A stretch of DNA of 53,185 nucleotides from an uncultured Parabacteroides sp. (GTDB taxonomy: Bacteria; Bacteroidota; Bacteroidia; Bacteroidales; Tannerellaceae): assembly GCA_964542435.1 (NCBI GenBank), contig CAZIVE010000004.1, forward strand, positions 1 to 53,185. The letters are read 5' to 3'. Position 1 is the stretch's first letter; every line of letters begins with the position of its first letter. This document shows, piece after piece, positions 1-52,424 of the stretch. Both the position numbers and the translations under genes were made by a program. The notes under the pieces are model-generated. The model was not told the DNA's origin and searched no databases. It was given only the letters and a program-made list of their open reading frames with translations.

Positions 1-110
1 TGAGAATTTTACACCGTATTTAGCTTCCTGCAAAATTGCAATGACTTTTTGAAGTCATTGCAGTCGTTTCATACGGTGAAATGCAATGACCGATTTGGGA
101 TAAAGTGCTA
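1..110. repeat. Window-truncated member of the dispersed intergenic repeat family, containing a strong hairpin
   Basis: Unit 67-108 (tttcatacggtgaaatgcaatgaccgatttgggataaagtgc) aligns by eye at about 70% with the leading unit of the 51.8-kb array (tttccaccgggtgaaatgcactgtgagacctttgaaaagtcg). The reverse complement of 22-32 is tgcaggaagct, the same word found at 51826 and 52080. There is a perfect 11-bp hairpin: 37-47 tgcaatgactt pairs with 52-62 aagtcattgca. Confidence 0.5.
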
Positions 111-2920: not shown

Positions 2921-3111
2921 ACAGCTTGCACTACTTTGATGCTGACGCATCGAAGATAGGTTGCGTCTCGGAAATACGAAAGTGACTTTTTGTATTTCCC
3001 TCGACTTGCACTACTTTGATGCTGTCGCATCGAAGATAGGCTTCGTCTCGGCATAAAAAATGAATGGATTCATTTTATTCTGCCCTCGACTTGCACTATC
3101 TTTGCACACGG
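2921..3111. repeat. Direct repeats with an 80-85 bp period (two full copies plus one truncated copy) upstream of the GH51 gene
   Basis: Cores 2925-2971 and 3005-3051 (cttgcactactttgatgctgNcgcatcgaagataggNtNcgtctcgg) differ at 3 of 47 positions. A third copy begins at 3090, and ccctcgacttgcact occurs at both 2998 and 3083. Each core contains the small hairpin gatgc-NNNN-gcatc. Confidence 0.85.
3097..3104 (+). promoter_or_regulatory. Bacteroidota -7 promoter box (TAnnTTTG) for the GH51 gene
   Basis: tatctttg matches TAnnTTTG and ends 22 nt upstream of the ATG at 3127. It lies inside the truncated third repeat copy. Confidence 0.5.
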
Positions 3112-10034: not shown

Positions 10035-10106
10035 TAATCGTAGCCGTGAGGGTGAAACAGCCTTTTTAGATTTAAAAAAGGCCACTGCATTGGTGAAAGT
10101 GGTAAT

Positions 10107-10365
10107 GCTATCTACAATGTATTTTCCTTGTTTCAGCTCAGCGGGAAGCTATCTACAATGTATTTTCCTTGTTTCAGCTCAGCGGGAAGCTATCTGCAAT
10201 GTTTTTTCCTTGTTTCAGCTCAGCGGGAAGCTATCTGCAATGTTTTTTCCCTGTTTTAGCTCGGCGGGAAGCTTTTCTACAATGTATTTTCCTCGTTTTA
10301 ACTTAGCGGAAAGCTTTCTACAATGTATTTCCCCTCGTTTCAATTTTGCGGGAAGCTTATTCGTA
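10107..10365. repeat. Tandem array of about 6.3 units with a 41-42 bp period
   Basis: Units start at 10107, 10148, 10189, 10230, 10271, 10313 and 10355. Units 1 and 2 are identical (gctatctacaatgtattttccttgtttcagctcagcgggaa). Unit 3 has 2 changes, unit 4 has 3 more, and units 5-6 are 42 bp and more diverged. GGTGAAA words at 10051 and 10092 precede the array. Confidence 0.9.
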
Positions 10366-10506
10366 CATATTTCTAACGATTGACTTATATTTTTATAGCA
10401 CAGCAATAAATTTATTCCCATTTTTACCAAATTATTCCGATATTCGTGGTCAAGAGAGGCGAGTGAAGGATTCTCGCATCGTTAACCTTATTATTACTCA
10501 GGAAAG

Positions 10507-13572: not shown

Positions 13573-13615
13573 CTTCGTAAACGAAAATACACAAACCAAT
13601 TAATTCTTTAAGATC

Positions 13616-14608
13616 ATGAGTAATAGAAGAACTTTTTTAAAAAATCTTTCCCTCATCTCGTTGAGTGGATTCGTAGGAGAGAGAGCATTCGCTTCCAATC
13701 AGCCCTCATTTATGGGAAGCGAGATTCCTTCAGTGATGAATACGGAAGGCAAGAAACAGATGGGCTTGCAGACCTATTCACTGGGACAGGAACTACTGAA
13801 GGATATGCCGAACGGATTGAAACGTCTGGCAAAGATGGGCTACACAGAGTTGGAGATTTTCGGATATAAGGAAGACTCCGGTAAATTCGGCGATTATTCA
13901 CGTACCAACACTACGTTTATTGATCCTCAGAATTATTTTGACATGGCAGATAATGCAGGACTCGTCATCACAAGTTCGCATCTTACTCCGATGATCCAGG
14001 ATTATACAAAGGAGAATATGCCGAAGTTCGAAGAGTTTTGGAAGAAGGCAACGGATGTCCATTTCAAGTTAAATGCAAAATATATGGTGCAGCCGAGTCT
14101 GCCCCGTATTCAGAGCGAAGACGATGCTAAGCGTGTGGCTGATATTTTCAATCGCGCCGGTGAGATCACCAAAGAGGCCAATATTACTTTCGGCTATCAT
14201 AACCATAGCAACGAATTCAAGACCATCTCAAAAGACGGTGTGCAGGATATTCCCAAGTCTCCTTTCGAGAAGCCGCAAGGACCTTTCATCGAGGAATTGT
14301 TGTTGAAGAATACGGATCCTGAAAAAGTATCTTTTGAATTGGATGTTTATTGGGCTATGATGGCTCAGCAGGATCCTGTTGAGTGGATTCAGAAATATCC
14401 CAAGAGGTTTAAGCTGCTCCACATCAAAGACCGTTGGATCATTGGTGATTCGGGAATGCTGAACTTTGCTAATATCTTCAAAGCCGGTTATCAGAACGGC
14501 ATGACGAACTACTTCGTTGAACTGGAAGGTGATCCTGATAATAGAAGCCAGTTTGAAGGTGTTGAACAAAGTGCGATGTATCTCAAAAAGGCATCGTTTG
14601 TCAAATAA
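13616..14608 (+). CDS. Tat-exported xylose-isomerase-like TIM-barrel protein (sugar phosphate isomerase/epimerase family), paralog 1
   Basis: The ORF is 330 aa. It has the twin-arginine motif SNRRTFLKN followed by a hydrophobic region and AxA. TIM-barrel motifs are GYTELEIFG, GYHNHSNEF and FELDVYW. Confidence 0.7.
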   Translation: MSNRRTFLKNLSLISLSGFVGERAFASNQPSFMGSEIPSVMNTEGKKQMGLQTYSLGQELLKDMPNGLKRLAKMGYTELEIFGYKEDSGKFGDYSRTNTTFIDPQNYFDMADNAGLVITSSHLTPMIQDYTKENMPKFEEFWKKATDVHFKLNAKYMVQPSLPRIQSEDDAKRVADIFNRAGEITKEANITFGYHNHSNEFKTISKDGVQDIPKSPFEKPQGPFIEELLLKNTDPEKVSFELDVYWAMMAQQDPVEWIQKYPKRFKLLHIKDRWIIGDSGMLNFANIFKAGYQNGMTNYFVELEGDPDNRSQFEGVEQSAMYLKKASFVK

Positions 14609-14663
14609 TGTTTCAGATGAATTAACCAAATTCCATTCATAGATTAAAATAATAATGTATTGA

Positions 14664-14729
14664 GGGTTGTCCAGTTTTCGGCTGCATCTGTGAAAGATGA
14701 GTCTAAGACGAAGGACAGCCCTTTTTATT
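14664..14729 (+). terminator. Long-hairpin terminator candidate after paralog 1
   Basis: gggttgtcc pairs with ggacagccc (one G-U pair). An inner stem is formed by catct/agatg. The hairpin is followed by ctttttatt. Confidence 0.5.
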
Positions 14730-14857
14730 CTCCCTATTTAGGTTTTGTTGATGCACATCAAAAAATGAGTTAATAGCTAAGAATCAGCCACTTTTTGACA
14801 AACATCAAGAAATAGGAAATATTGGGAAATCAGATACTTATTGAAGAATTTTTGTTA

Positions 14858-14865
14858 TATATTTG
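14858..14865 (+). promoter_or_regulatory. -7 promoter box (TAnnTTTG) for paralog 2
   Basis: tatatttg lies 46 nt upstream of the ATG at 14911. Confidence 0.45.
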
Positions 14866-14910
14866 TCAGTGTAGTCAAAACATAAACTAACTTATTAATT
14901 CTTTAAGACC

Positions 14911-15903
14911 ATGAGTAACAGAAGAACTTTTTTGAAGAATTTCTCTCTTTTGACATTAGGCGGATTAGCCGGAGAGAAAGCAATGGCTTCCAATCATTCC
15001 TATTTTAGTGGAAGCGAAGTGCCTTCAGTGATGAGCACAGAAGGTAAGAAGCAGATGGGCCTGCAGACCTATTCTTTAGGGCAGGAACTTCTCAAGGACA
15101 TGCCGAACGGTTTGAAACGGTTGGCTAAAATGGGTTACACTGAATTGGAAATCTTCGGTTATCGAGGAGATTCAGGAAAGTTCGGTGATTATTCGCGTAC
15201 TAATACGACATTCATCGCTGCAAAGGACTATTATCAGATGGCAGAGGATGCAGGCTTGCTTATAACGAGCTCACATCTTTCGCCTTCCATTCAGGAATAC
15301 ACCGCAGAGAACATGCCGAAGTTTGACGAGTTCTGGAAGAAAGCGACCGATGTGCATTTCAATATGAATGTGAAATACATGGTACAGCCGAGTCTGCCGC
15401 GTATTCAGAGCGAAGACGATGCGAAGCGTGTGGCTGAGATCTTCAATCGTGCCGGTGAAATAACCAAACAGGCGGGAATCACGTGGGGATATCATAACCA
15501 CAGCAATGAGTTCAAGACCATCTCAAAAGATGGCGTGCAGGATATTCCAAAGTCTCCTTTCGAGAAGCCGCAAGGACCTTCCATCGAGGAACTCTTCCTC
15601 AAGAACACAGATCCTGACAAGGTCGTATTTGAGTTGGATGTATATTGGGCCATGATGGCTCAGCAAGATCCCGTGGAATGGATCAACAAGTATTCTCAAC
15701 GTTACAAACTGCTCCACATCAAAGACCGTTGGATCATCGGAGATTCGGGAATGCTGAACTTTGCCAATATCTTCAAGGCTGGATACAAGAACGGCATGAC
15801 GAATTACTTCGTCGAGTTGGAAGGTAATCCCGAAAATAAAGTCCAGTTTGAAGGCGTCGAAAAGAGTGCGATGTATTTGAAAAAGGCATCGTTTGTCAAA
15901 TAA
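14911..15903 (+). CDS. Tat-exported xylose-isomerase-like TIM-barrel protein, paralog 2
   Basis: The ORF is 330 aa. A gap-free manual alignment to paralog 1 gives 51 mismatches in 330 residues (about 85% identity). The Tat motif SNRRTFLKN is the same. Confidence 0.7.
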   Translation: MSNRRTFLKNFSLLTLGGLAGEKAMASNHSYFSGSEVPSVMSTEGKKQMGLQTYSLGQELLKDMPNGLKRLAKMGYTELEIFGYRGDSGKFGDYSRTNTTFIAAKDYYQMAEDAGLLITSSHLSPSIQEYTAENMPKFDEFWKKATDVHFNMNVKYMVQPSLPRIQSEDDAKRVAEIFNRAGEITKQAGITWGYHNHSNEFKTISKDGVQDIPKSPFEKPQGPSIEELFLKNTDPDKVVFELDVYWAMMAQQDPVEWINKYSQRYKLLHIKDRWIIGDSGMLNFANIFKAGYKNGMTNYFVELEGNPENKVQFEGVEKSAMYLKKASFVK

Positions 15904-15954
15904 TGTTTCAAATGGATTAACCAAAGTCCATCCATCGATTCAATAATTTATTGC

Positions 15955-16020
15955 GGGTTGCCCAGTTTTAGACAGCATCTGTGAAAGATAAGTCTAAGAT
16001 GAAGGGCAACCCCTTTTTAT
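15955..16020 (+). terminator. Long-hairpin terminator candidate after paralog 2
   Basis: A perfect 9-bp stem (gggttgccc / gggcaaccc) is followed by cctttttatt. It is homologous to the hairpin after paralog 1. Confidence 0.55.
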
Positions 16021-19214: not shown

Positions 19215-19470
19215 ACGGATGTAGAAGCCCTCAAAACCGGGTAAAAAGCATTCCGACGAGTGTAGAAGTCCTATTTCCTCGGTAAAAAGCATTTCGACGG
19301 ACGTAGAAGTCCAAAAAACCGGGTAAAAAGCATTCCGACGAGCGTAGAAGTCCTATTTCCTCAGTAAAAAGCATTTCGACGGATGTAGGAGTCCAAAAAA
19401 CCGGGTAAAAAGTATTCCTACACTTGTTGAAGCCCAAAACAACCCTTGGAAAGCACTTCAGCCGATGTAG
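19215..19470. repeat. Tandem array with an exact 41-bp period and an alternating A/B (82-bp) higher-order structure, about 6 units
   Basis: Units start at 19215, 19256, 19297, 19338, 19379 and 19420. The odd units are acggaYgtagaagNcc...aaaaccgggtaaaaagcattccg. The even units are acgagYgtagaagtcctatttcctcRgtaaaaagcatttcg. The array starts 2 nt after the manA stop codon. Confidence 0.9.
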
Positions 19471-29609: not shown

Positions 29610-30347
29610 ATGATATATTTGCGTAAATCGATAATGATATTGCTGACACTTACACTGTTCAGCGGATTCGCATTCTCTCAGAAGGCGGAACGTAAGAATG
29701 TGCGGGCAGGTAATAAAATGTATCAGCAAAAGAAATATACGGAAGCCGAGATTGCCTATAGAAAAAGTCTGGTGGTAAACCCTCATTCTATAGAAGGTAC
29801 CTACAATTTAGGTAATTCACTATATCGGCAGAAAAAGTATCCCGAAGCTGCCCAGCAGTATCAAGCTCTTGCAGCACAAGGTGAGAAAATGGCAAAGACG
29901 CCGGAAGGTCGTGCTCGTCTGGCTCAGCTCTTTCATAATGTGGGTAACATTGGAATGCAGAATAAGGAATATGATAAGAGTGTTGCCGCATACAAACAAT
30001 CTCTTCGTTTGAATCCTAAAGACGATCAGACACGTTATAATTTGGCTTTGGCACAGAAATTGTTACAAAATCAACAGAATCAAGATAAGAGTAATAACAA
30101 TAAAAACAAGGACAAGAAGGACAATCAAGATCAGAAGAATCAGCAACAACAGCAACAGCAGCAGCAAAATAACGATAACAAGCAGAACAAAACCGAACAG
30201 CAGAAGCAGCAGAATGAGCAGATGAGTAAAGACAATGCTCAGCAAATGCTTGATGCTTTCCTGCAGGACGAGAAGGACACTCAGGAAAAGGTTAGAAAGG
30301 CTCAAGCTCAACAGCAACGAAATCGTCATATTGAGAAGCAGTGGTAA
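29610..30347 (+). CDS. batC: TPR-repeat protein BatC with a Gln/Asn-rich C-terminal region
   Basis: The ORF is 245 aa with a signal or anchor sequence. TPR-like repeats include YNLGNSLYRQKKYPEAAQQY and YNLALAQ. The low-complexity tract reads QNQQNQDKSNNNKNKDKKDNQDQKNQQQQQQQQQNNDNKQNK. Confidence 0.65.
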   Translation: MIYLRKSIMILLTLTLFSGFAFSQKAERKNVRAGNKMYQQKKYTEAEIAYRKSLVVNPHSIEGTYNLGNSLYRQKKYPEAAQQYQALAAQGEKMAKTPEGRARLAQLFHNVGNIGMQNKEYDKSVAAYKQSLRLNPKDDQTRYNLALAQKLLQNQQNQDKSNNNKNKDKKDNQDQKNQQQQQQQQQNNDNKQNKTEQQKQQNEQMSKDNAQQMLDAFLQDEKDTQEKVRKAQAQQQRNRHIEKQW

Positions 30348-35387: not shown

Positions 35388-35522
35388 AGATTTTGAAAAT
35401 ATTATTGGCTTTAGTAAACAATTATATTGAATAATTGTTATACCTTTGAATATAAATTCTAGTCAATTCAAATTATTAGTAGTATTTGTTTTTTCATATA
35501 AGTAGAGTTTGTTATTTGTTTG

Positions 35523-35560
35523 GTCCGCGTTAAGCTGTGAAGTTTGGCGCGGACATTTTT
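35523..35560 (+). terminator. Intrinsic terminator candidate downstream of the usp gene
   Basis: A perfect 7-bp stem (gtccgcg / cgcggac) is followed by attttt. A T-rich tract also lies upstream, so it may act in both directions. Confidence 0.5.
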
Positions 35561-35658
35561 AATCATTCATTCATAGAATTTTAGAGATTTCTTTTGCTCC
35601 TTTGAATGAGTCTCAAAAATTCACGATTGAAATTCCTATCGAATCGGAAAGGAAAAAG

Positions 35659-35745
35659 TTTTAACCATGGTTGAATATTTTTTTCACAATAGTCCTAGAA
35701 AGTTTTAACCACGGTTGAAAATTATTTTAACCATGGTTGAAAATT
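35659..35745. promoter_or_regulatory. Three phased copies of a palindromic site, TTTTAACCATGGTTGAA(AA)
   Basis: The 10-bp palindrome aaccatggtt occurs at 35663 and 35729, and the one-mismatch copy aaccacggtt occurs at 35707. Spacings are 44 and 22 bp. Confidence 0.45.
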
Positions 35746-35892
35746 ATTTTCATCGTAAGGATTGAAAAATTGAAAGTATGAAATGAAAAGTTCAACCGAT
35801 GAATGCGGAAAAGTATGAGAAGAACTCCTGTGTCAATTCTTGCGTTGCTAAAGATTTCATGGCTTCTTCTTATCATTTAGGATTATAAGTAT

Positions 35893-41160: not shown

Positions 41161-43215
41161 ATGCAGAAATATAATATTCTTGAACTCACGGAGAAAGAGC
41201 TTCCCCAGTTGCAGTCCATTGCGTCCGAATTGGGTGTTGAAAAAGTTGAAAGCTTTGCCAAAGAAGATCTGGTTTATAGAATTTTGGATGAACAGGCGAT
41301 CTCTGTCGCTGGTAAGCAGGCTGAAAAAGATGCCTTGAAATCAGGACAGCAGCAAAGTCGTAAAAGAGGTCGTCCAAGAGGAACCGCCAAAACAGCAAAG
41401 CCTTCCGATCCTTCTCCTGCAGTTAACAAGCCCGCAGAGAAAAAAGAAGAGGCACCCAAAACTATTCAGTCCAAGCCTGAACCAAACGCAGAACAACCCG
41501 AAAGGAAAAAACGAATCATCATTGAGAAAAAAGAGAAAGTAGCAGCCGCTATCGCACCTTCTGTTGCAGGTGGCGAAACGAAAGTCTCTAAAGTTCCCCA
41601 AATGATTACAACTGTCACTCCAAAGCCTGTTGTCAATGCTCCTAAACCAGCGCCGAAGCCTGTCGTAACGCCTAATCCCGTTACTCCAAAACCGGCTGAA
41701 GCACCCAACCAGACTTTGTTCAGAGAAGATAAATGGGCACAAGGTGAAAAGCCTCTGCTTCCTCCTGTCGTTGCTGAACTTGAGGACGATTTCGAAGATG
41801 AAATCCCAGCTGAACCAGTTGCTCCAGTAGAAGAAGCACCTGCTCCCGAAACTCCGGTACAGCAGACGGAACAGCCGGAACACGAGAGAATGGTATTCCG
41901 TCATCCGGATTCTAATTCGCTGCTCGATCAGATTTTCCCATTCTCACCGTCTCCTCAGAAAAAGAAGGAACCACAGAATGAGAATCCGCGTCAGATCAAT
42001 AACAAGCGTAACAACAATAACCAGCGCAATAATCCCAATCAGAATCAGAACCAGAATCAGGCTCCGGCTGAACGTCAGTACGACTTCGAAGGAATTCTCA
42101 ATGGTTCGGGTGTGCTTGAGATGATGCCTGACGGATACGGATTCCTCCGTTCTTCCGATTATAATTATCTGACATCGCCTGATGATATCTACGTTTCTCA
42201 GTCGCAGATCAAACTCTTCGGACTGAAAACCGGTGATGTTGTGGAAGGTACCATCCGTCCGCCGAAAGAGGGAGAAAAATATTTCCCATTGGTTAAGGTG
42301 GATTCCATCAATGGATGTTCACCGGAACAGATCCGTGATCGCGTTCCCTTTGATCATCTGACGCCGCTCTTCCCTGACGAGAAGTTCATGCTTACAGCTA
42401 AGCAGTCTCCGAAGGTGTATGACAATATCGCCGTTCGCGTGGTGGATCTTTTCTCACCGATCGGTAAAGGACAGCGCGGTCTGATCGTTGCTCAGCCAAA
42501 GACCGGTAAGACAATGTTGCTTAAAGATATCGCCAATGCCATCGCTTTCAACCATCCTGAAGTGTATATGTTCGTCCTTTTGATTGACGAACGTCCTGAG
42601 GAGGTTACCGATATGGCTCGCAGCGTGGATGCCGAGGTTATTGCTTCTACATTCGATGAACCGGCTGATCGCCACGTGAAGATTGCAGAAATTGTTCTGA
42701 ACAAGGCCAAACGTCTGGTTGAATGCGGCCACGATGTGGTTATATTGCTTGACTCCATCACGCGTCTTGCCCGTGCATACAATACGGTACAGCCGGCATC
42801 CGGAAAGGTACTTTCCGGTGGTGTCGATGCCAATGCACTCCAAAAGCCGAAACGCTTCTTCGGTGCGGCTCGTAACATAGAGAACGGCGGAAGTCTGACG
42901 ATCCTTGCCACGGCATTGACCGAGACAGGTTCCAAGATGGATGATGTCATCTTTGAGGAATTCAAGGGAACCGGCAACATGGAACTTCAGCTCGACCGCA
43001 AGCTTTCCAATAAGCGCGTATTCCCGGCTGTCGATATTACCGCATCTAGTACGCGCCGTGATGATCTGTTGCAAGATGAGATGACGCTCAACCGTATGTG
43101 GGTACTGCGTAAGTATCTGTCTGATATGAATTCGATGGAAGCCATGGAGTTTGTAAAGAAACGTCTCGAAGATACGAAGGACAACATGGAGTTCCTTGCT
43201 ACGATGAACAGTTGA
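41161..43215 (+). CDS. rho: Transcription termination factor Rho with a low-complexity insertion of about 250 aa
   Basis: The ORF is 684 aa. It has a Rho N-terminal helical region, then a Pro/Lys/Glu/Asn-rich insert, then a CSD-like RNA-binding domain ([14 protein letters not shown]). The ATPase has Walker A AQPKTGKT and [10 protein letters not shown]. Confidence 0.95.
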
Positions 43216-51774: not shown

Positions 51775-52240
51775 TTTCCACCGGGTGAAATGCACTGTGA
51801 GACCTTTGAAAAGTCGTTTCACCGGTGCAGGAAGCTTTCAGAGTACTCGCCGAGCACCTTCACCCGTTGTAAAGTGCTTCCGGAGTACTCGCCGAGGACT
51901 TTTCACCCATTGTAAAGTGCTTTCAGAGTACTCGCCGAGCGCCTTCACCCGTTGTAAAGTGCTTTCAGAGCACTCGCCGAGGACTTTTCACCCGTTGTAA
52001 AGTGCTTTCAGAGTAGTCGCCAAGCACTTTTCACTCTTGCAGGAAGCTTGCCGAGTACTCGCCAAGGTGTTTCACCCGGTGCAGGAAGCTTGCCGAGGCC
52101 TTGCCAAGGAGATTTCACCCATGCCTGAAGCATTCAGAGTATTCATTAAGGACCTTCCATCCATGCTGGAAGCATTCGGAGCACTCACTTCATACATTTC
52201 ATCCATGCACAGAACAATGCGAGTTGTCGAAGATGTTGCC
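51775..52240. repeat. Largest tandem array: about 11 units of 41-44 bp
   Basis: Units start at 51775, 51817, 51859, 51901, 51944, 51986, 52029, 52070, 52113, 52155 and 52197. The central consensus is tttcacccgttgtaaagtgctttcagagtactcgccgaggac. The first unit carries the inverted junction tttccacc/gggtgaaa. The flanking units are progressively degenerate. Confidence 0.9.
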
Positions 52241-52364: not shown

Positions 52365-52424
52365 GATGAATAATTATTCAATGAGTATGCATATATTTGC
52401 ACCCAAAATGAATATTTATACAAA
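52365..52424 (+). promoter_or_regulatory. Three ARG boxes (ArgR operators) in 21-bp phase
   Basis: The 18-mers are gaTGAATAATTATTCAat (52365), taTGCATATATTTGCAcc (52386) and aaTGAATATTTATACAaa (52407), each separated by 3 bp. This is the canonical TGAAT-N4-ATTCA architecture. Confidence 0.7.
52392..52399 (+). promoter_or_regulatory. -7 promoter box (TAnnTTTG) for argR, embedded in ARG box 2
   Basis: tatatttg lies 33 nt upstream of the ATG at 52432. Confidence 0.5.

What the first reader, a model, noticed from the sequence alone, without database searches (positions are those of the whole stretch)
51775..52240. Dispersed family of tandem arrays with a 41-43-bp period occupying at least five intergenic regions; the largest has about 11 units between the SDR gene and argR
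Eleven consecutive units (starts listed in the feature) have the central consensus tttcacccgttgtaaagtgctttcagagtactcgccgaggac, which contains the 8-bp palindrome GAGTACTC. The array opens with an inverted junction (tttccacc|gggtgaaa) and degrades toward both edges. The same period, about four helical turns, recurs at 10107-10365 (41-42 bp) and 19215-19470 (41 bp, 82-bp dimers). It recurs as a doubled period at 2921-3111 (80-85 bp), and a truncated relative sits at 1-110. By eye the arrays share a short core (GGGTGAAAAG / CTTTTCACCC, then CGG-CGAG, plus TGCAGGAAGCT words) at roughly 55-70% identity, and they occur in both orientations. Each array is internally homogenised to its own variant. 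Together they make up about 1.3 kb, or about 2.4% of the window, all of it strictly intergenic. Each begins 2-75 nt after a stop codon or just upstream of a promoter. There are no unique spacers, so they are not CRISPR arrays. There are no flanking transposase genes, and no convincing coding potential. They could be a minisatellite or MITE-like selfish family; minisatellite-bearing MITEs have been reported in Porphyromonas, but I cannot verify any relationship. They could also be phased binding arrays for a nucleoid or regulatory protein, or structured UTR modules. I cannot name a described element that matches, which makes this the least explained signal in the window.
Basis: partly seen in the sequence, partly recalled or inferred. 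Interest (0 to 1): 0.75.

Follow-up and report, generated by a model that had tools for sequence, protein, structure and literature searches.

The report
Dispersed 41-bp modular repeat family
The tandem arrays are real: they are copies of an apparently undescribed, species-specific, non-coding interspersed repeat (a short inverted "leader" followed by a variable number of 41-43-bp units) that sits downstream of genes in an uncultured relative of Parabacteroides, comparable in kind to pneumococcal BOX elements and the Porphyromonas MITEs that carry minisatellites.

Summary
The array at 51775-52240 is real: one inverted "leader" unit plus about 10 direct units of 42-43 bp. So are the arrays at 10107-10372 (41 bp, 6 units) and 19215-19470 (41 bp, 82-bp dimers).

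Profile searches show that A (51775-52240), B (10044-10378) and the fragment at 1-83 belong to one family. That fragment is in reverse orientation and continues outside the window. The array at 19215 is only a marginal relative (P about 0.005-0.015). The repeat at 2921-3111 is unrelated.

A metagenome scan found the same architecture at 7 further loci. Six carry an "F-type" unit, and five of those could be compared (85-96% identical). One carries A-type units (87% to A). At least one locus comes from the same organism, and a 42-bp "G" array lies 10 kb from it.

The architecture is: gene 3' end, then 1-2 leader units (an inverted copy of a unit, with the palindrome TTTCACC-G-GGTGAAA), then n direct units, then a decaying 3' edge. 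The first ~20 nt of a unit are conserved (TTTCAcCc.TGCaGGAAGC) and the rest varies between subfamilies.

Copy number varies between strains (3, 5 or 6 units at one locus). I found no transposase, terminal inverted repeats, target duplications, spacers, Rfam match or Bacteroidetes promoter boxes.

Best reading: a lineage-specific, non-autonomous modular interspersed repeat with minisatellite behaviour. It is a new member of a known kind and of moderate interest.

The parts
51775..51816 (+). Array A leader: one 41-42-nt unit in inverted orientation. It opens with the palindrome TTTCCACC-G-GGTGAAA and ends with GAC..GTC(G).
   Evidence: The leader profile hits 51775-51816 (E 5e-7). It is 87% identical, together with the first unit, to a second locus, L144. 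Leader units are about 70-77% complementary to the second half of body units.
51817..52196 (+). Array A body: nine direct units of 41-43 nt. The central units form an 85-nt dimer. The consensus is TTTCACCCGTTGTAAAGTGCTTTCAGAGTACTCGCCGAGGAC. The first unit and units 6-7 keep the family core TTTCACC..TGCAGGAAGCT.
   Evidence: TRF periods 43/85/42. Unit starts are listed. The unit profile hits at 51817, 52029, 52071, 52113 and 52155.
52197..52240 (+). Array A decayed terminal unit (TTTCATCCATGCACAG...). It is the 3' edge of the element. The argR promoter region with ARG boxes begins about 125 nt further on.
   Evidence: Sequence read in register. The array is the same length (465 nt between anchors) in an independent metagenome contig, L165.
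10044..10130 (+). Array B leader-like region: two inverted cores (GGGTGAAAC at 10050, GGTGAAAG at 10092) 42 nt apart, starting 10 nt after the MBOAT stop codon. It contains the hairpin GCCTTTTT..AAAAAGGC.
   Evidence: Read from the sequence. It is too diverged for the leader profile (no hit at E<=10), so this assignment is by eye.
10131..10378 (+). Array B body: six direct 41-42-nt units, TTTCAGCTCAGCGGGAAGCTATCTACAATGTATTTTCCTTG. The same unit type forms the 3' tail of F-type elements at other loci.
   Evidence: TRF 10107-10357, period 41, 89%. The unit profile hits six times. The tails of L173 and L137 carry ACGATGTATTTTCCTTGGTTCAACGCTGCGGAAGC.
1..83 (-). Array E, reverse orientation, cut by the window edge. 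The leader is at 83-44 and contains the perfect hairpin TGCAATGACTT/AAGTCATTGCA. The first body unit is at 41-7. About three more degenerate units lie outside the window.
   Evidence: The leader profile hits 83-44 on the minus strand (E 1e-7). The unit profile hits 41-7. The extension was read in L014:12100-12500.
19215..19470 (+). Array C: six 41-nt units as three 82-nt dimers, starting 2 nt after the manA stop codon. It has no recognisable leader. It has the same period and is a probable but unproven distant relative.
   Evidence: TRF. It is not hit by the family profiles. Best links: the C2 unit to the L116 tail unit (P=0.005) and the C1 unit to the A leader (P=0.015). One strain lacks one unit.

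Best explanation
The arrays are copies of a lineage-specific, non-coding, non-autonomous interspersed repeat. It occurs in an uncultured bacterium whose nearest named relatives are Parabacteroides and other Tannerellaceae.

Each copy is built from one ancestral unit of about 41 nt. One or two units in inverted orientation form a 'leader'. The leader is joined head-to-head, at the palindrome (CG)TTTCACC-G-GGTGAAA(CG), to a run of direct units. The number of direct units grows and shrinks in whole units, by slipped-strand mispairing or unequal recombination. This homogenises each array and leaves decayed units at the 3' edge.

What is shown: family membership, the architecture, subfamilies shared between unlinked loci, whole-unit copy-number differences between strains, location at gene 3' ends, and restriction to this lineage.

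What is inferred: the copies were spread by some form of transposition or recombination acting in trans. The conserved ~20-nt first half of the unit (TTTCAcCc.TGCaGGAAGC) is the part recognised by whatever protein moves or binds the element. The element is tolerated rather than needed by the host, because it sits where it does least harm.
For: (1) Leader and unit profiles built from a few copies hit A, B and E in the window and 7 other loci, and nothing in about 1.2 Mb from 80 related Bacteroidales genomes.
(2) The same unit subtype occurs at unlinked loci with different flanking genes. F-type leader plus first unit is 85-96% identical across 5 loci. A-type is 87% identical across 2 loci. Identity between subfamilies is 62-74%.
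(3) Arrays are mosaics. B-type units end F-type elements, and A's first unit and units 6-7 carry the F-type core.
(4) The F-type locus next to a UmuC-like gene was recovered from the same metagenome samples as the window. It has 2 leaders plus 3, 5 or 6 units in different samples. Array C lacks one unit in one strain.
(5) All 12 arrays (the 10 family copies plus C and G) are intergenic, in convergent or tandem gene pairs and never in divergent ones.
(6) The first 20 unit columns carry 1.13 bits per column and the last 21 carry 0.49.
(7) The leader is a 70-77% reverse complement of a body unit and forms a 12-bp stem.
(8) Other readings found no support: no spacers, no Rfam family, no TAnnTTTG promoter boxes, and the period is not a multiple of three.
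(9) Precedents of the same kind exist: pneumococcal BOX elements (PMC3049150), and MITEPgRS with 41-nt repeats and BrickBuilt in P. gingivalis (PMC2575886, PMC4596501).
Against: No terminal inverted repeats of an insertion-sequence type and no consistent target-site duplications were found. No empty site was seen, because every strain sampled has the element at every locus examined. No transposase or other partner protein was identified. Mobility is therefore inferred only from the dispersed, similar copies. Arrays A and B have the same length in all strains seen, so they are not hypervariable. The stronger conservation of the first half of the unit, and the retained 41-43-bp spacing in very different subfamilies (A, C, G), could equally reflect a host function. 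The links of arrays C and G to the family are weak.
Confidence: 0.6

Rival explanations
1. Host-functional phased binding arrays. A DNA-binding protein recognises the conserved core (TTTCACC...GCAGGAAGCT). It would bind as a dimer on the leader palindrome and as a chain on direct units spaced 41-43 bp apart, about four helical turns. The resulting nucleoprotein structure at gene ends would act, for example, as a transcription or replication roadblock, a domain boundary or a regulatory sink.
For: The core half of the unit is conserved across subfamilies while the other half drifts. The period is kept at 41-43 bp even in arrays with almost no sequence similarity (C, G). The leader carries a perfect 7-1-7 to 9-1-9 palindrome of the kind bound by dimeric proteins. 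Arrays A and B are length-stable across strains.
Against: No candidate protein was found. Copy number at one locus varies freely (3, 5 or 6 units) between otherwise near-identical strains. The elements are absent from all relatives examined, so any function is very young. Edge decay and mosaicism are typical of neutral minisatellite dynamics. Conservation of the period is also explained by common descent.
Confidence: 0.14
2. True MITE homologous to Porphyromonas gingivalis MITEPgRS/MITE464. In this reading the elements are deletion derivatives of an IS5-family insertion sequence, are mobilised by its transposase, and carry the same 41-nt internal minisatellite.
For: MITEPgRS has tandem 41-nt 'Repeat C' units, up to 14 copies, in variable numbers, in another family of the order Bacteroidales (PMC2575886, PMC4596501). 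The left edge of array A contains GAGACCTTTGAA, one mismatch from the BrickBuilt/IS5-type end GAGACCTTTGCA.
Against: That 12-mer lies inside the conserved leader, about 25 nt from its 5' edge. In the other copies it reads GACTTCAAAAAAGTC, so it is not a terminus. No inverted repeats of the GAGAC..TTGCA type flank any copy. MITEPgRS has Repeat A/B blocks at both ends, whereas here a leader occurs at one end only. The published authors found no match for the MITEPgRS repeats outside P. gingivalis (PMC4596501). The MITEPgRS repeat sequence is printed only in a figure, so it could not be compared.
Confidence: 0.1
3. Transcribed RNA modules. The arrays would be parts of 3' UTRs or independent small RNAs, with leader hairpins and repeated units that stabilise, terminate or sequester transcripts or RNA-binding proteins.
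For: The elements sit just after stop codons or terminator-like hairpins. Leaders fold into 12-bp stems (z -3 to -4 with DNA parameters). Whole arrays fold better than shuffles on the leader-to-body strand (z about -3) than on the opposite strand (z -1.3). B units contain weak hairpin-plus-T runs.
Against: No compensatory changes support the leader stem: 88% of cells pair, which is no better than shuffles, and there are zero double changes. There is no Rfam match. One copy (L144) is antisense to both neighbouring genes. Most copies lie in convergent intergenic regions, where orientation says nothing. There are no promoter boxes inside the arrays. No expression data were available.
Confidence: 0.08
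4. Unrelated local slippage products. Each array would have arisen independently from local sequence, and the arrays would share only a period by chance.
For: Consensus-to-consensus comparisons of A, B and C are not significant. Arrays C and G have no convincing sequence link to the others.
Against: A, B, E and the F-type loci share a leader and a 20-nt core at E-values down to 1e-11. Identical subtypes occur at unlinked loci. About 1.2 Mb of related genomes contains essentially no arrays of 41-43 bp. Six such arrays in about 95 kb of this organism cannot be chance.
Confidence: 0.03

Closest known systems
MITEPgRS (MITE464) of Porphyromonas gingivalis
   Same: It is an intergenic, non-coding, multi-copy element in a member of the Bacteroidales. 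Its interior is a tandem array of 41-nt units whose number varies between copies, up to 14 (PMC2575886, PMC4596501). The units are flanked by other short repeat modules.
   Different: MITEPgRS has ISPg1-type terminal inverted repeats (GAGACTGTTGCA / TGCAACGGTCTC) and Repeat A/B blocks at both ends. The present elements have an inverted-unit leader at one end only, a decaying other end and no such terminal repeats. Sequence homology could not be tested. The host is a different family.
Pneumococcal BOX elements (boxA-boxB(n)-boxC)
   Same: Both have a modular build with a fixed 5' module and a variable number of a ~45-nt internal module in tandem. Both are intergenic and can form a stem-loop. 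In both, the number of internal modules differs between strains and longer arrays vary more. Both are species-restricted and apparently lack their own transposase (PMC3049150).
   Different: BOX elements have a defined 3' module (boxC) and reported terminal inverted repeats and target duplications. Here the 3' end simply degenerates and none were found. The phylum is different and no sequence relationship is expected. Here the leader is itself an inverted copy of the repeated unit.
BrickBuilt MITE of P. gingivalis
   Same: It has a leader, a tandem minisatellite and a tail. It is always intergenic, has about 19 copies, varies between strains and contains no spacers (PMC4596501).
   Different: Its unit is 23 nt, not 41-43 nt. 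[quoted passage not shown] Promoter activity is reported for it, whereas no Bacteroidetes -7 boxes occur in the present arrays.
REP/BIME elements of enterobacteria and pseudomonads
   Same: They are short, abundant, palindrome-containing repeats clustered downstream of genes, often between convergent genes, and organised in composite arrays.
   Different: REP units are 20-40-nt palindromes in alternating orientation with a conserved 5' GTAG, and they are linked to RAYT transposases. Here there are long runs of direct 41-nt units with a single inverted junction. No RAYT was seen, but the genome is not available to check.

Membership tests
MITEPgRS / MITE464 (P. gingivalis) | Internal tandem array of 41-nt units in variable number | tested here: met
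   The period is 41 (B, C, E, F) or 42-43 (A, G). There are 1-10 units per copy. One locus has 3, 5 or 6 units in different strains.
MITEPgRS / MITE464 (P. gingivalis) | Terminal inverted repeats identical to ISPg1 (GAGACTGTTGCA ... TGCAACGGTCTC) at both ends | tested here: not met
   The only near match (GAGACCTTTGAA at 51799) is internal to the conserved leader and is not kept in other copies. No terminal inverted repeats were found around five complete copies.
MITEPgRS / MITE464 (P. gingivalis) | Repeat A/B blocks just inside both ends | tested here: not met
   Leader units occur at one end only. The other end decays into degenerate units.
MITEPgRS / MITE464 (P. gingivalis) | Sequence similarity to the Repeat A, B and C consensus | not testable with these tools
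   The consensus sequences are given only in a figure of PMC2575886. No supplement text is held.
Generic MITE | Small, non-coding, multi-copy, dispersed at unlinked loci | tested here: met
   There are 10 distinct loci with family copies of 120-470 nt. Flanking genes differ. ORFs across the arrays are short and shift frame.
Generic MITE | Terminal inverted repeats and target-site duplications | tested here: inconclusive
   The leader is 70-77% complementary to body units, so the two ends of a short copy are inverted repeats of about 30 nt. The 3' terminus is undefined. Only two candidate direct repeats were seen (AATAATG in L173, AAATGATGA in L116).
Generic MITE | Cognate autonomous element or transposase with matching ends | not testable with these tools
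   There is no transposase in the window or in about 40 kb of extra sequence from the organism. No complete genome is available.
BOX-type modular repeats | Fixed 5' module, n copies of an internal module, fixed 3' module | tested here: inconclusive
   The 5' leader and the repeated module are clear. The 3' end is a B-type unit in two copies (L173, L137) and simply degenerate in the others.
BOX-type modular repeats | Module number varies between strains at a given locus | tested here: met
   The UmuC locus has 3, 5 or 6 units. Array C loses one unit in L008. Arrays A and B are invariant in the strains seen.
CRISPR array | Conserved repeats separated by unique spacers, usually with cas genes nearby | tested here: not met
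   Units abut without spacers, and the variable half is the same in all units of an array. There are no cas genes in the window.
REP/BIME | 20-40-nt palindromic units with 5' GTAG in alternating orientation | tested here: not met
   Units are direct 41-43-nt repeats with a single inverted junction, and there is no GTAG head.
Rfam RNA families | Match at the gathering score | tested here: not met
   There were no hits in the window or in five element-bearing loci, apart from an unrelated tRNA. The only sub-threshold hit is mir-11 at 23.9 bits against a gathering score of 45.

The most novel reading that the evidence does not exclude
The arrays are not junk. They would be phased landing pads for a dedicated DNA-binding protein, encoded by the host or by the element. 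The protein would bind as a dimer on the leader palindrome (CGTTTCACC-G-GGTGAAACG) and then polymerise along direct half-sites spaced four helical turns apart. The resulting filaments of tunable length at gene 3' ends could act as transcription or replication barriers or as chromosome-domain anchors. The recurrence of 41 bp in P. gingivalis MITEPgRS would then point to a shared, order-wide protein-DNA geometry rather than coincidence.
Probability: 0.1. Interest if true: 0.7.

Novelty: new member of a known kind. Interest (0 to 1): 0.4.

Why it matters
The family makes up about 2% of the sampled genome of an uncultured Tannerellaceae-like bacterium, roughly one array per 16 kb. That is a load comparable to REP, Correia or BOX elements in well-studied species.

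It matters in practice because it breaks short-read assemblies. Contigs carrying argR end inside array A. It may also cause chimeric joins, and it attracts spurious gene calls.

Its whole-unit copy-number differences give ready-made strain markers for this organism in metagenomes.

Together with MITEPgRS, it hints that 41-bp minisatellite-bearing interspersed repeats may recur in the order Bacteroidales. That would be worth a systematic survey.

The split of each unit into a conserved half and a free half gives a concrete sequence to use as bait for the unknown protein partner.

Tried and rejected
- IS5-type terminal inverted repeat. GAGACCTTTGAA at 51799 looked like the BrickBuilt/ISNme1 end. 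It lies inside the conserved leader and is not kept in other copies. Rejected.
- Plain pairwise consensus alignment and blastn between the window arrays gave only noise-level hits. It was superseded by profiles built after the metagenome scan.
- Orientation rule (leader always next to the stop codon of a co-oriented gene). Most copies lie between convergent genes, where the rule is automatically true, and L144 breaks it. Not significant.
- Target-site duplications: none consistent.
- Covariation in the leader hairpin: none.
- Rfam at gathering and E-value thresholds: nothing.
- Sigma-70 promoter and terminator scan, and a search for Bacteroidetes TAnnTTTG boxes. There are no promoter boxes in any array, and only weak hairpin-plus-T features in B units.
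- Viral contig scan with the leader palindrome: 24 hits that match only the 16-nt seed, so they are chance.
- blastn against plasmid and phage collections: no match.
- Orthologous loci in 80 related genomes. They have no arrays, but synteny downstream of manA is not conserved, so no empty site could be defined.
- The closest GH127 homologue (76% identity) sits in a different context in another organism and has no elements.
- Attempts to obtain the MITEPgRS repeat sequence from papers failed. No supplement text is held, and Nelson 2003 is not held.
It was then reached through a homology search.
- C-type and G-type unit profiles find only their own loci.
Full report

Yes, for the core of it.

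- Tandem Repeats Finder reports arrays at 51834-52208 (overlapping rows with periods 43, 85 and 42), at 10107-10357 (period 41, 6.1 copies, 89% matches) and at 19215-19444 (period 41; period 82 at 92%).
- A lag-autocorrelation scan of all 53 kb for periods 15-130 found these three places and no others.
- Read in register, array A has one unit at 51775-51816 that opens with the inverted junction TTTCCACC|GGGTGAAA. Ten direct units follow, starting at 51817, 51858, 51901, 51943, 51986, 52029, 52070, 52113, 52155 and 52197. The last units decay.
- The central units form an 85-nt dimer. Array C forms an 82-nt dimer. Such higher-order repeats are typical of arrays evolving by unequal exchange.
- The fragment at 1-110 is real. 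Contigs of the same organism that extend beyond the window start show about five degenerate 41-nt units there.

**2. Are the arrays one family?**

Simple comparisons did not show it. Alignments of the A, B and C consensus units were not better than shuffles. blastn between the arrays gave only short, noise-level hits, although these hits fell on each other repeatedly.

The question was settled by finding more copies.

- I took a core seen in A and B (TTTCA-N5-6-GCRGGAAGCT-N20-23-TTTCA). It occurs 4 times in the window and 0 times in 100 shuffles.
- It does not occur in 80 loci (1.2 Mb) from related Bacteroidales genomes.
- A scan of the metagenome collection gave 79 loci. Most are chance hits in coding DNA. 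Eleven are real: L165 and L166 (array A again), L157 (array B again), L144, and L116/L132, L128, L137, L141, L145 and L173.
- The last six loci carry one and the same 'F-type' unit, TTTCACCAGTGCAGGAAGCTTTTTAGAAGTTATATTGGTAC, at six different genomic places with different neighbouring genes.

**3. Architecture**

Every complete copy reads, in order:

- the 3' end of a gene, often with a terminator-like hairpin judged by eye;
- one or two 41-nt 'leader' units, CATTTCACCGGGTGAAACGGTTAAAATGACTTCAAAAAAGTCG;
- n direct 'body' units that each start TTTCACC..TGCAGGAAGCT;
- increasingly degenerate units at the far end.

The leader is not a foreign sequence. Its reverse complement is 70-77% identical to the second half of a body unit plus the start of the next. 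The element is therefore a head-to-head junction of units in which only one arm is amplified.

Profile results:

- A leader profile hits full-length only in these loci and at 51775-51816 (+) and 83-44 (-) in the window.
- A unit profile hits arrays A, B and E and all F-type loci.
- The arrays are mosaics. The 3' tails of the F-type copies in L173 and L137 are B-type units. The first unit and units 6-7 of array A carry the F-type core.
- L144 is a second locus with an A-type leader and units, 87% identical to A over leader plus first unit.
- F-type copies are 85-96% identical to each other. Subfamilies are 62-74% identical to each other.
- Across 15 distinct unit subtypes, the first 20 columns are conserved (TTTCAcCc.TGCaGGAAGC, 1.13 bits per column). 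The last 21 are not (0.49 bits per column).

**4. What is not in the family**

- The repeat at 2921-3111 is a two-copy 47-nt direct repeat 80 nt apart, in front of an arabinofuranosidase gene. It has no profile hit.
- Array C has the right period but no leader and no profile hit. Its best links are a 19-of-22 match of one unit type to a degenerate tail unit of L116 (P=0.005) and a match of the other unit type to the A leader (P=0.015). I regard it as a probable distant member.
- A further 42-nt array ('G', with 83-nt dimers) lies 10 kb from the F-type UmuC locus. It shares only ATTGCAATCTT with E units.

**5. Organism and distribution**

- The window proteins occur only on metagenome contigs.
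- The best ManA match among 185,579 species representatives is 71-72%, to Tannerellaceae and Parabacteroides.
- In the 5.8-billion-protein collection, the GH127 enzyme drops from 100% straight to 76% (a JGI metagenome protein). Named Parabacteroides proteins are at 73-76%.
- The UmuC-like protein next to an F-type copy drops from 100% to 59%.
- That F-type locus was recovered from the same samples as the window (ERZ27248702, ERZ27257417, 3300010348, ERZ22682194, 3300059061, ERZ778038), so it belongs to the same organism. Tetranucleotide composition agrees.
- The 80 related genomes and the contig of the closest GH127 homologue have no such arrays.
- In about 95 kb of this organism there are six arrays of period 41-43 (A, B, C, E, F at UmuC, and G). 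That is about one per 16 kb. This figure is an extrapolation, not a count.

**6. Dynamics**

- At the UmuC locus, all samples have two identical leaders but 3, 5 or 6 body units.
- Array C lacks exactly one unit in one sample.
- Arrays A and B have the same length in every contig that spans them.
- Contigs carrying argR stop inside array A.
- One contig (L210) joins the UmuC array to a different downstream gene. This is either recombination between copies or an assembly chimera.

**7. Location**

All arrays are intergenic. Six lie between convergent genes (or show convergence on the side that is visible), six lie between tandem genes and none lies between divergent genes. Because most are in convergent regions, the apparent rule that the leader follows a co-oriented stop codon carries little information. 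L144 is antisense to both of its neighbours.

**8. What it is not**

- Not CRISPR: there are no spacers and no cas genes.
- Not coding: the period is not a multiple of three and the ORFs are short.
- Not a known RNA family.
- Not a promoter array: there is no TAnnTTTG box in 2.65 kb of arrays on either strand.
- Not plasmid- or phage-borne in the collections searched.
- The leader folds into a 12-bp stem (z -3 to -4). However, ten leaders show no compensatory changes, so the stem may be only a by-product of the inverted-unit build.
- The IS5-like 12-mer at 51799 is internal to the leader and is not conserved. No terminal inverted repeats or consistent target duplications were found.
- No transposase or integrase is encoded in the window or in the extra sequence.

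**9. Interpretation**

The evidence fits a lineage-specific, non-autonomous, modular interspersed repeat whose internal unit behaves as a minisatellite.

- Shown: family membership, architecture, subfamilies at unlinked loci, whole-unit polymorphism, 3'-end location and lineage restriction.
- Inferred: past dispersal by a trans-acting enzyme or by recombination, and the conserved half-unit and leader palindrome as its recognition sequence.
- The main rival is that the conserved core and the fixed spacing of about four helical turns serve a host protein. I cannot exclude this. I give it about 0.14 in general, and about 0.1 for the specific filament model set out as the most novel reading.

**10. 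Comparison with known elements**

The closest known kinds are:

- pneumococcal BOX elements, in which boxA and boxC flank a variable tandem run of boxB modules and which vary between strains (PMC3049150);
- P. gingivalis MITEPgRS/MITE464, with 41-nt Repeat C in tandem up to 14 times between A/B blocks and ISPg1-type ends (PMC2575886, PMC4596501);
- BrickBuilt, with a leader, a run of 23-nt repeats and a tail (PMC4596501).

The present family works like these. It fails the defining terminal-repeat and two-ended A/B features of MITEPgRS, and its sequence could not be compared with it. I therefore file it as a new member of the general kind, not as a member of any named family.

The shared 41-nt period with MITEPgRS is a lead worth testing.

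**11. Verdict**

Three of the five listed regions are demonstrably one family, one is marginal and one is unrelated. The novelty is modest.

Noticed in passing
window 35474-35759: There are four to five copies of a 22-nt repeat, TTTTAACCATGGTTGAAAATTA, containing the palindrome AACCATGGTT. They lie in the gap between a universal-stress-protein gene and aspS (TRF period 22 and 23; direct-repeat family D6). This looks like an array of operator sites.
   Followed up: no
window 52367-52422: Two adjacent AT-rich imperfect palindromes (TGAATAATTATTCAATGAGTATGCATAT / ATTTGCACCC...) lie just upstream of argR. They resemble ARG boxes, which suggests that argR regulates itself. They lie about 125 nt beyond the end of array A.
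   Followed up: no
It is a 47-nt direct repeat 80 nt apart (94% identical) with an internal palindrome GATGC..GCATC, upstream of a GH51-type arabinofuranosidase gene. It is unrelated to the 41-nt family and may be a duplicated regulatory site. The ORF start at 3064 probably lies too far upstream.
   Followed up: partly
window 13584-16017: There is a tandem duplication of a gene for a sugar-phosphate isomerase/epimerase-like (AP_endonuc_2) protein: 13616-14608 and 14911-15903, 78% identical over 300 nt. Each copy is followed by a conserved 76-nt element (14651-14726 and 15942-16017, 86% identical) with a GGGTTGTCC...GGACAGCCC stem.
   Followed up: no
L205:21049-21258 = L211:10461-10800: This is another array from the same organism, with period 42 (83-nt dimers) and about 8 units of TTTTTCATCCAGGGATTGCAATCTTAGCCCTCGGATTCGAAC. 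It follows directly after a radical-SAM gene. It has the same period as the family but shares only an 11-mer with E units.
   Followed up: partly
L210:11283-11700: In one contig the F-type array downstream of the UmuC-like gene continues into a different tail and a different gene (DUF6261) instead of the AraC-type gene seen in the other seven contigs that read through the array. This is either recombination between two copies of the element or an assembly chimera through the repeat.
   Followed up: no
L142:5656-5771: This is a 41-nt perfect tandem triplication in an unrelated high-GC (65%) organism. It matched the search pattern by chance. It shows that the pattern scan selects any 41-bp duplication that carries the core words.
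   Followed up: partly
L035:5365-5472: In a Tannerella sp. MAG, a 44-nt AT-rich tandem repeat (2.5 copies) overlaps the end of the manA match and runs downstream of it, the same position as array C. There is no sequence similarity.
   Followed up: no
L204:4080-4171: In the contig of the closest GH127 homologue (another organism) there are four copies of a 22-nt palindromic repeat, ATCGGACCATATATATGGTCTG, upstream of a GH106 gene.
   Followed up: no
window 41161-43215: The rho gene encodes a 684-aa protein in which about 300 residues precede the Rho RNA-binding domain. The TRF rows at 41863-41882 and 42031-42060 show short codon repeats in the DNA for that region. CAG/CAA codon repeats also occur at 30141-30222, inside a TPR-protein gene.
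   Followed up: no
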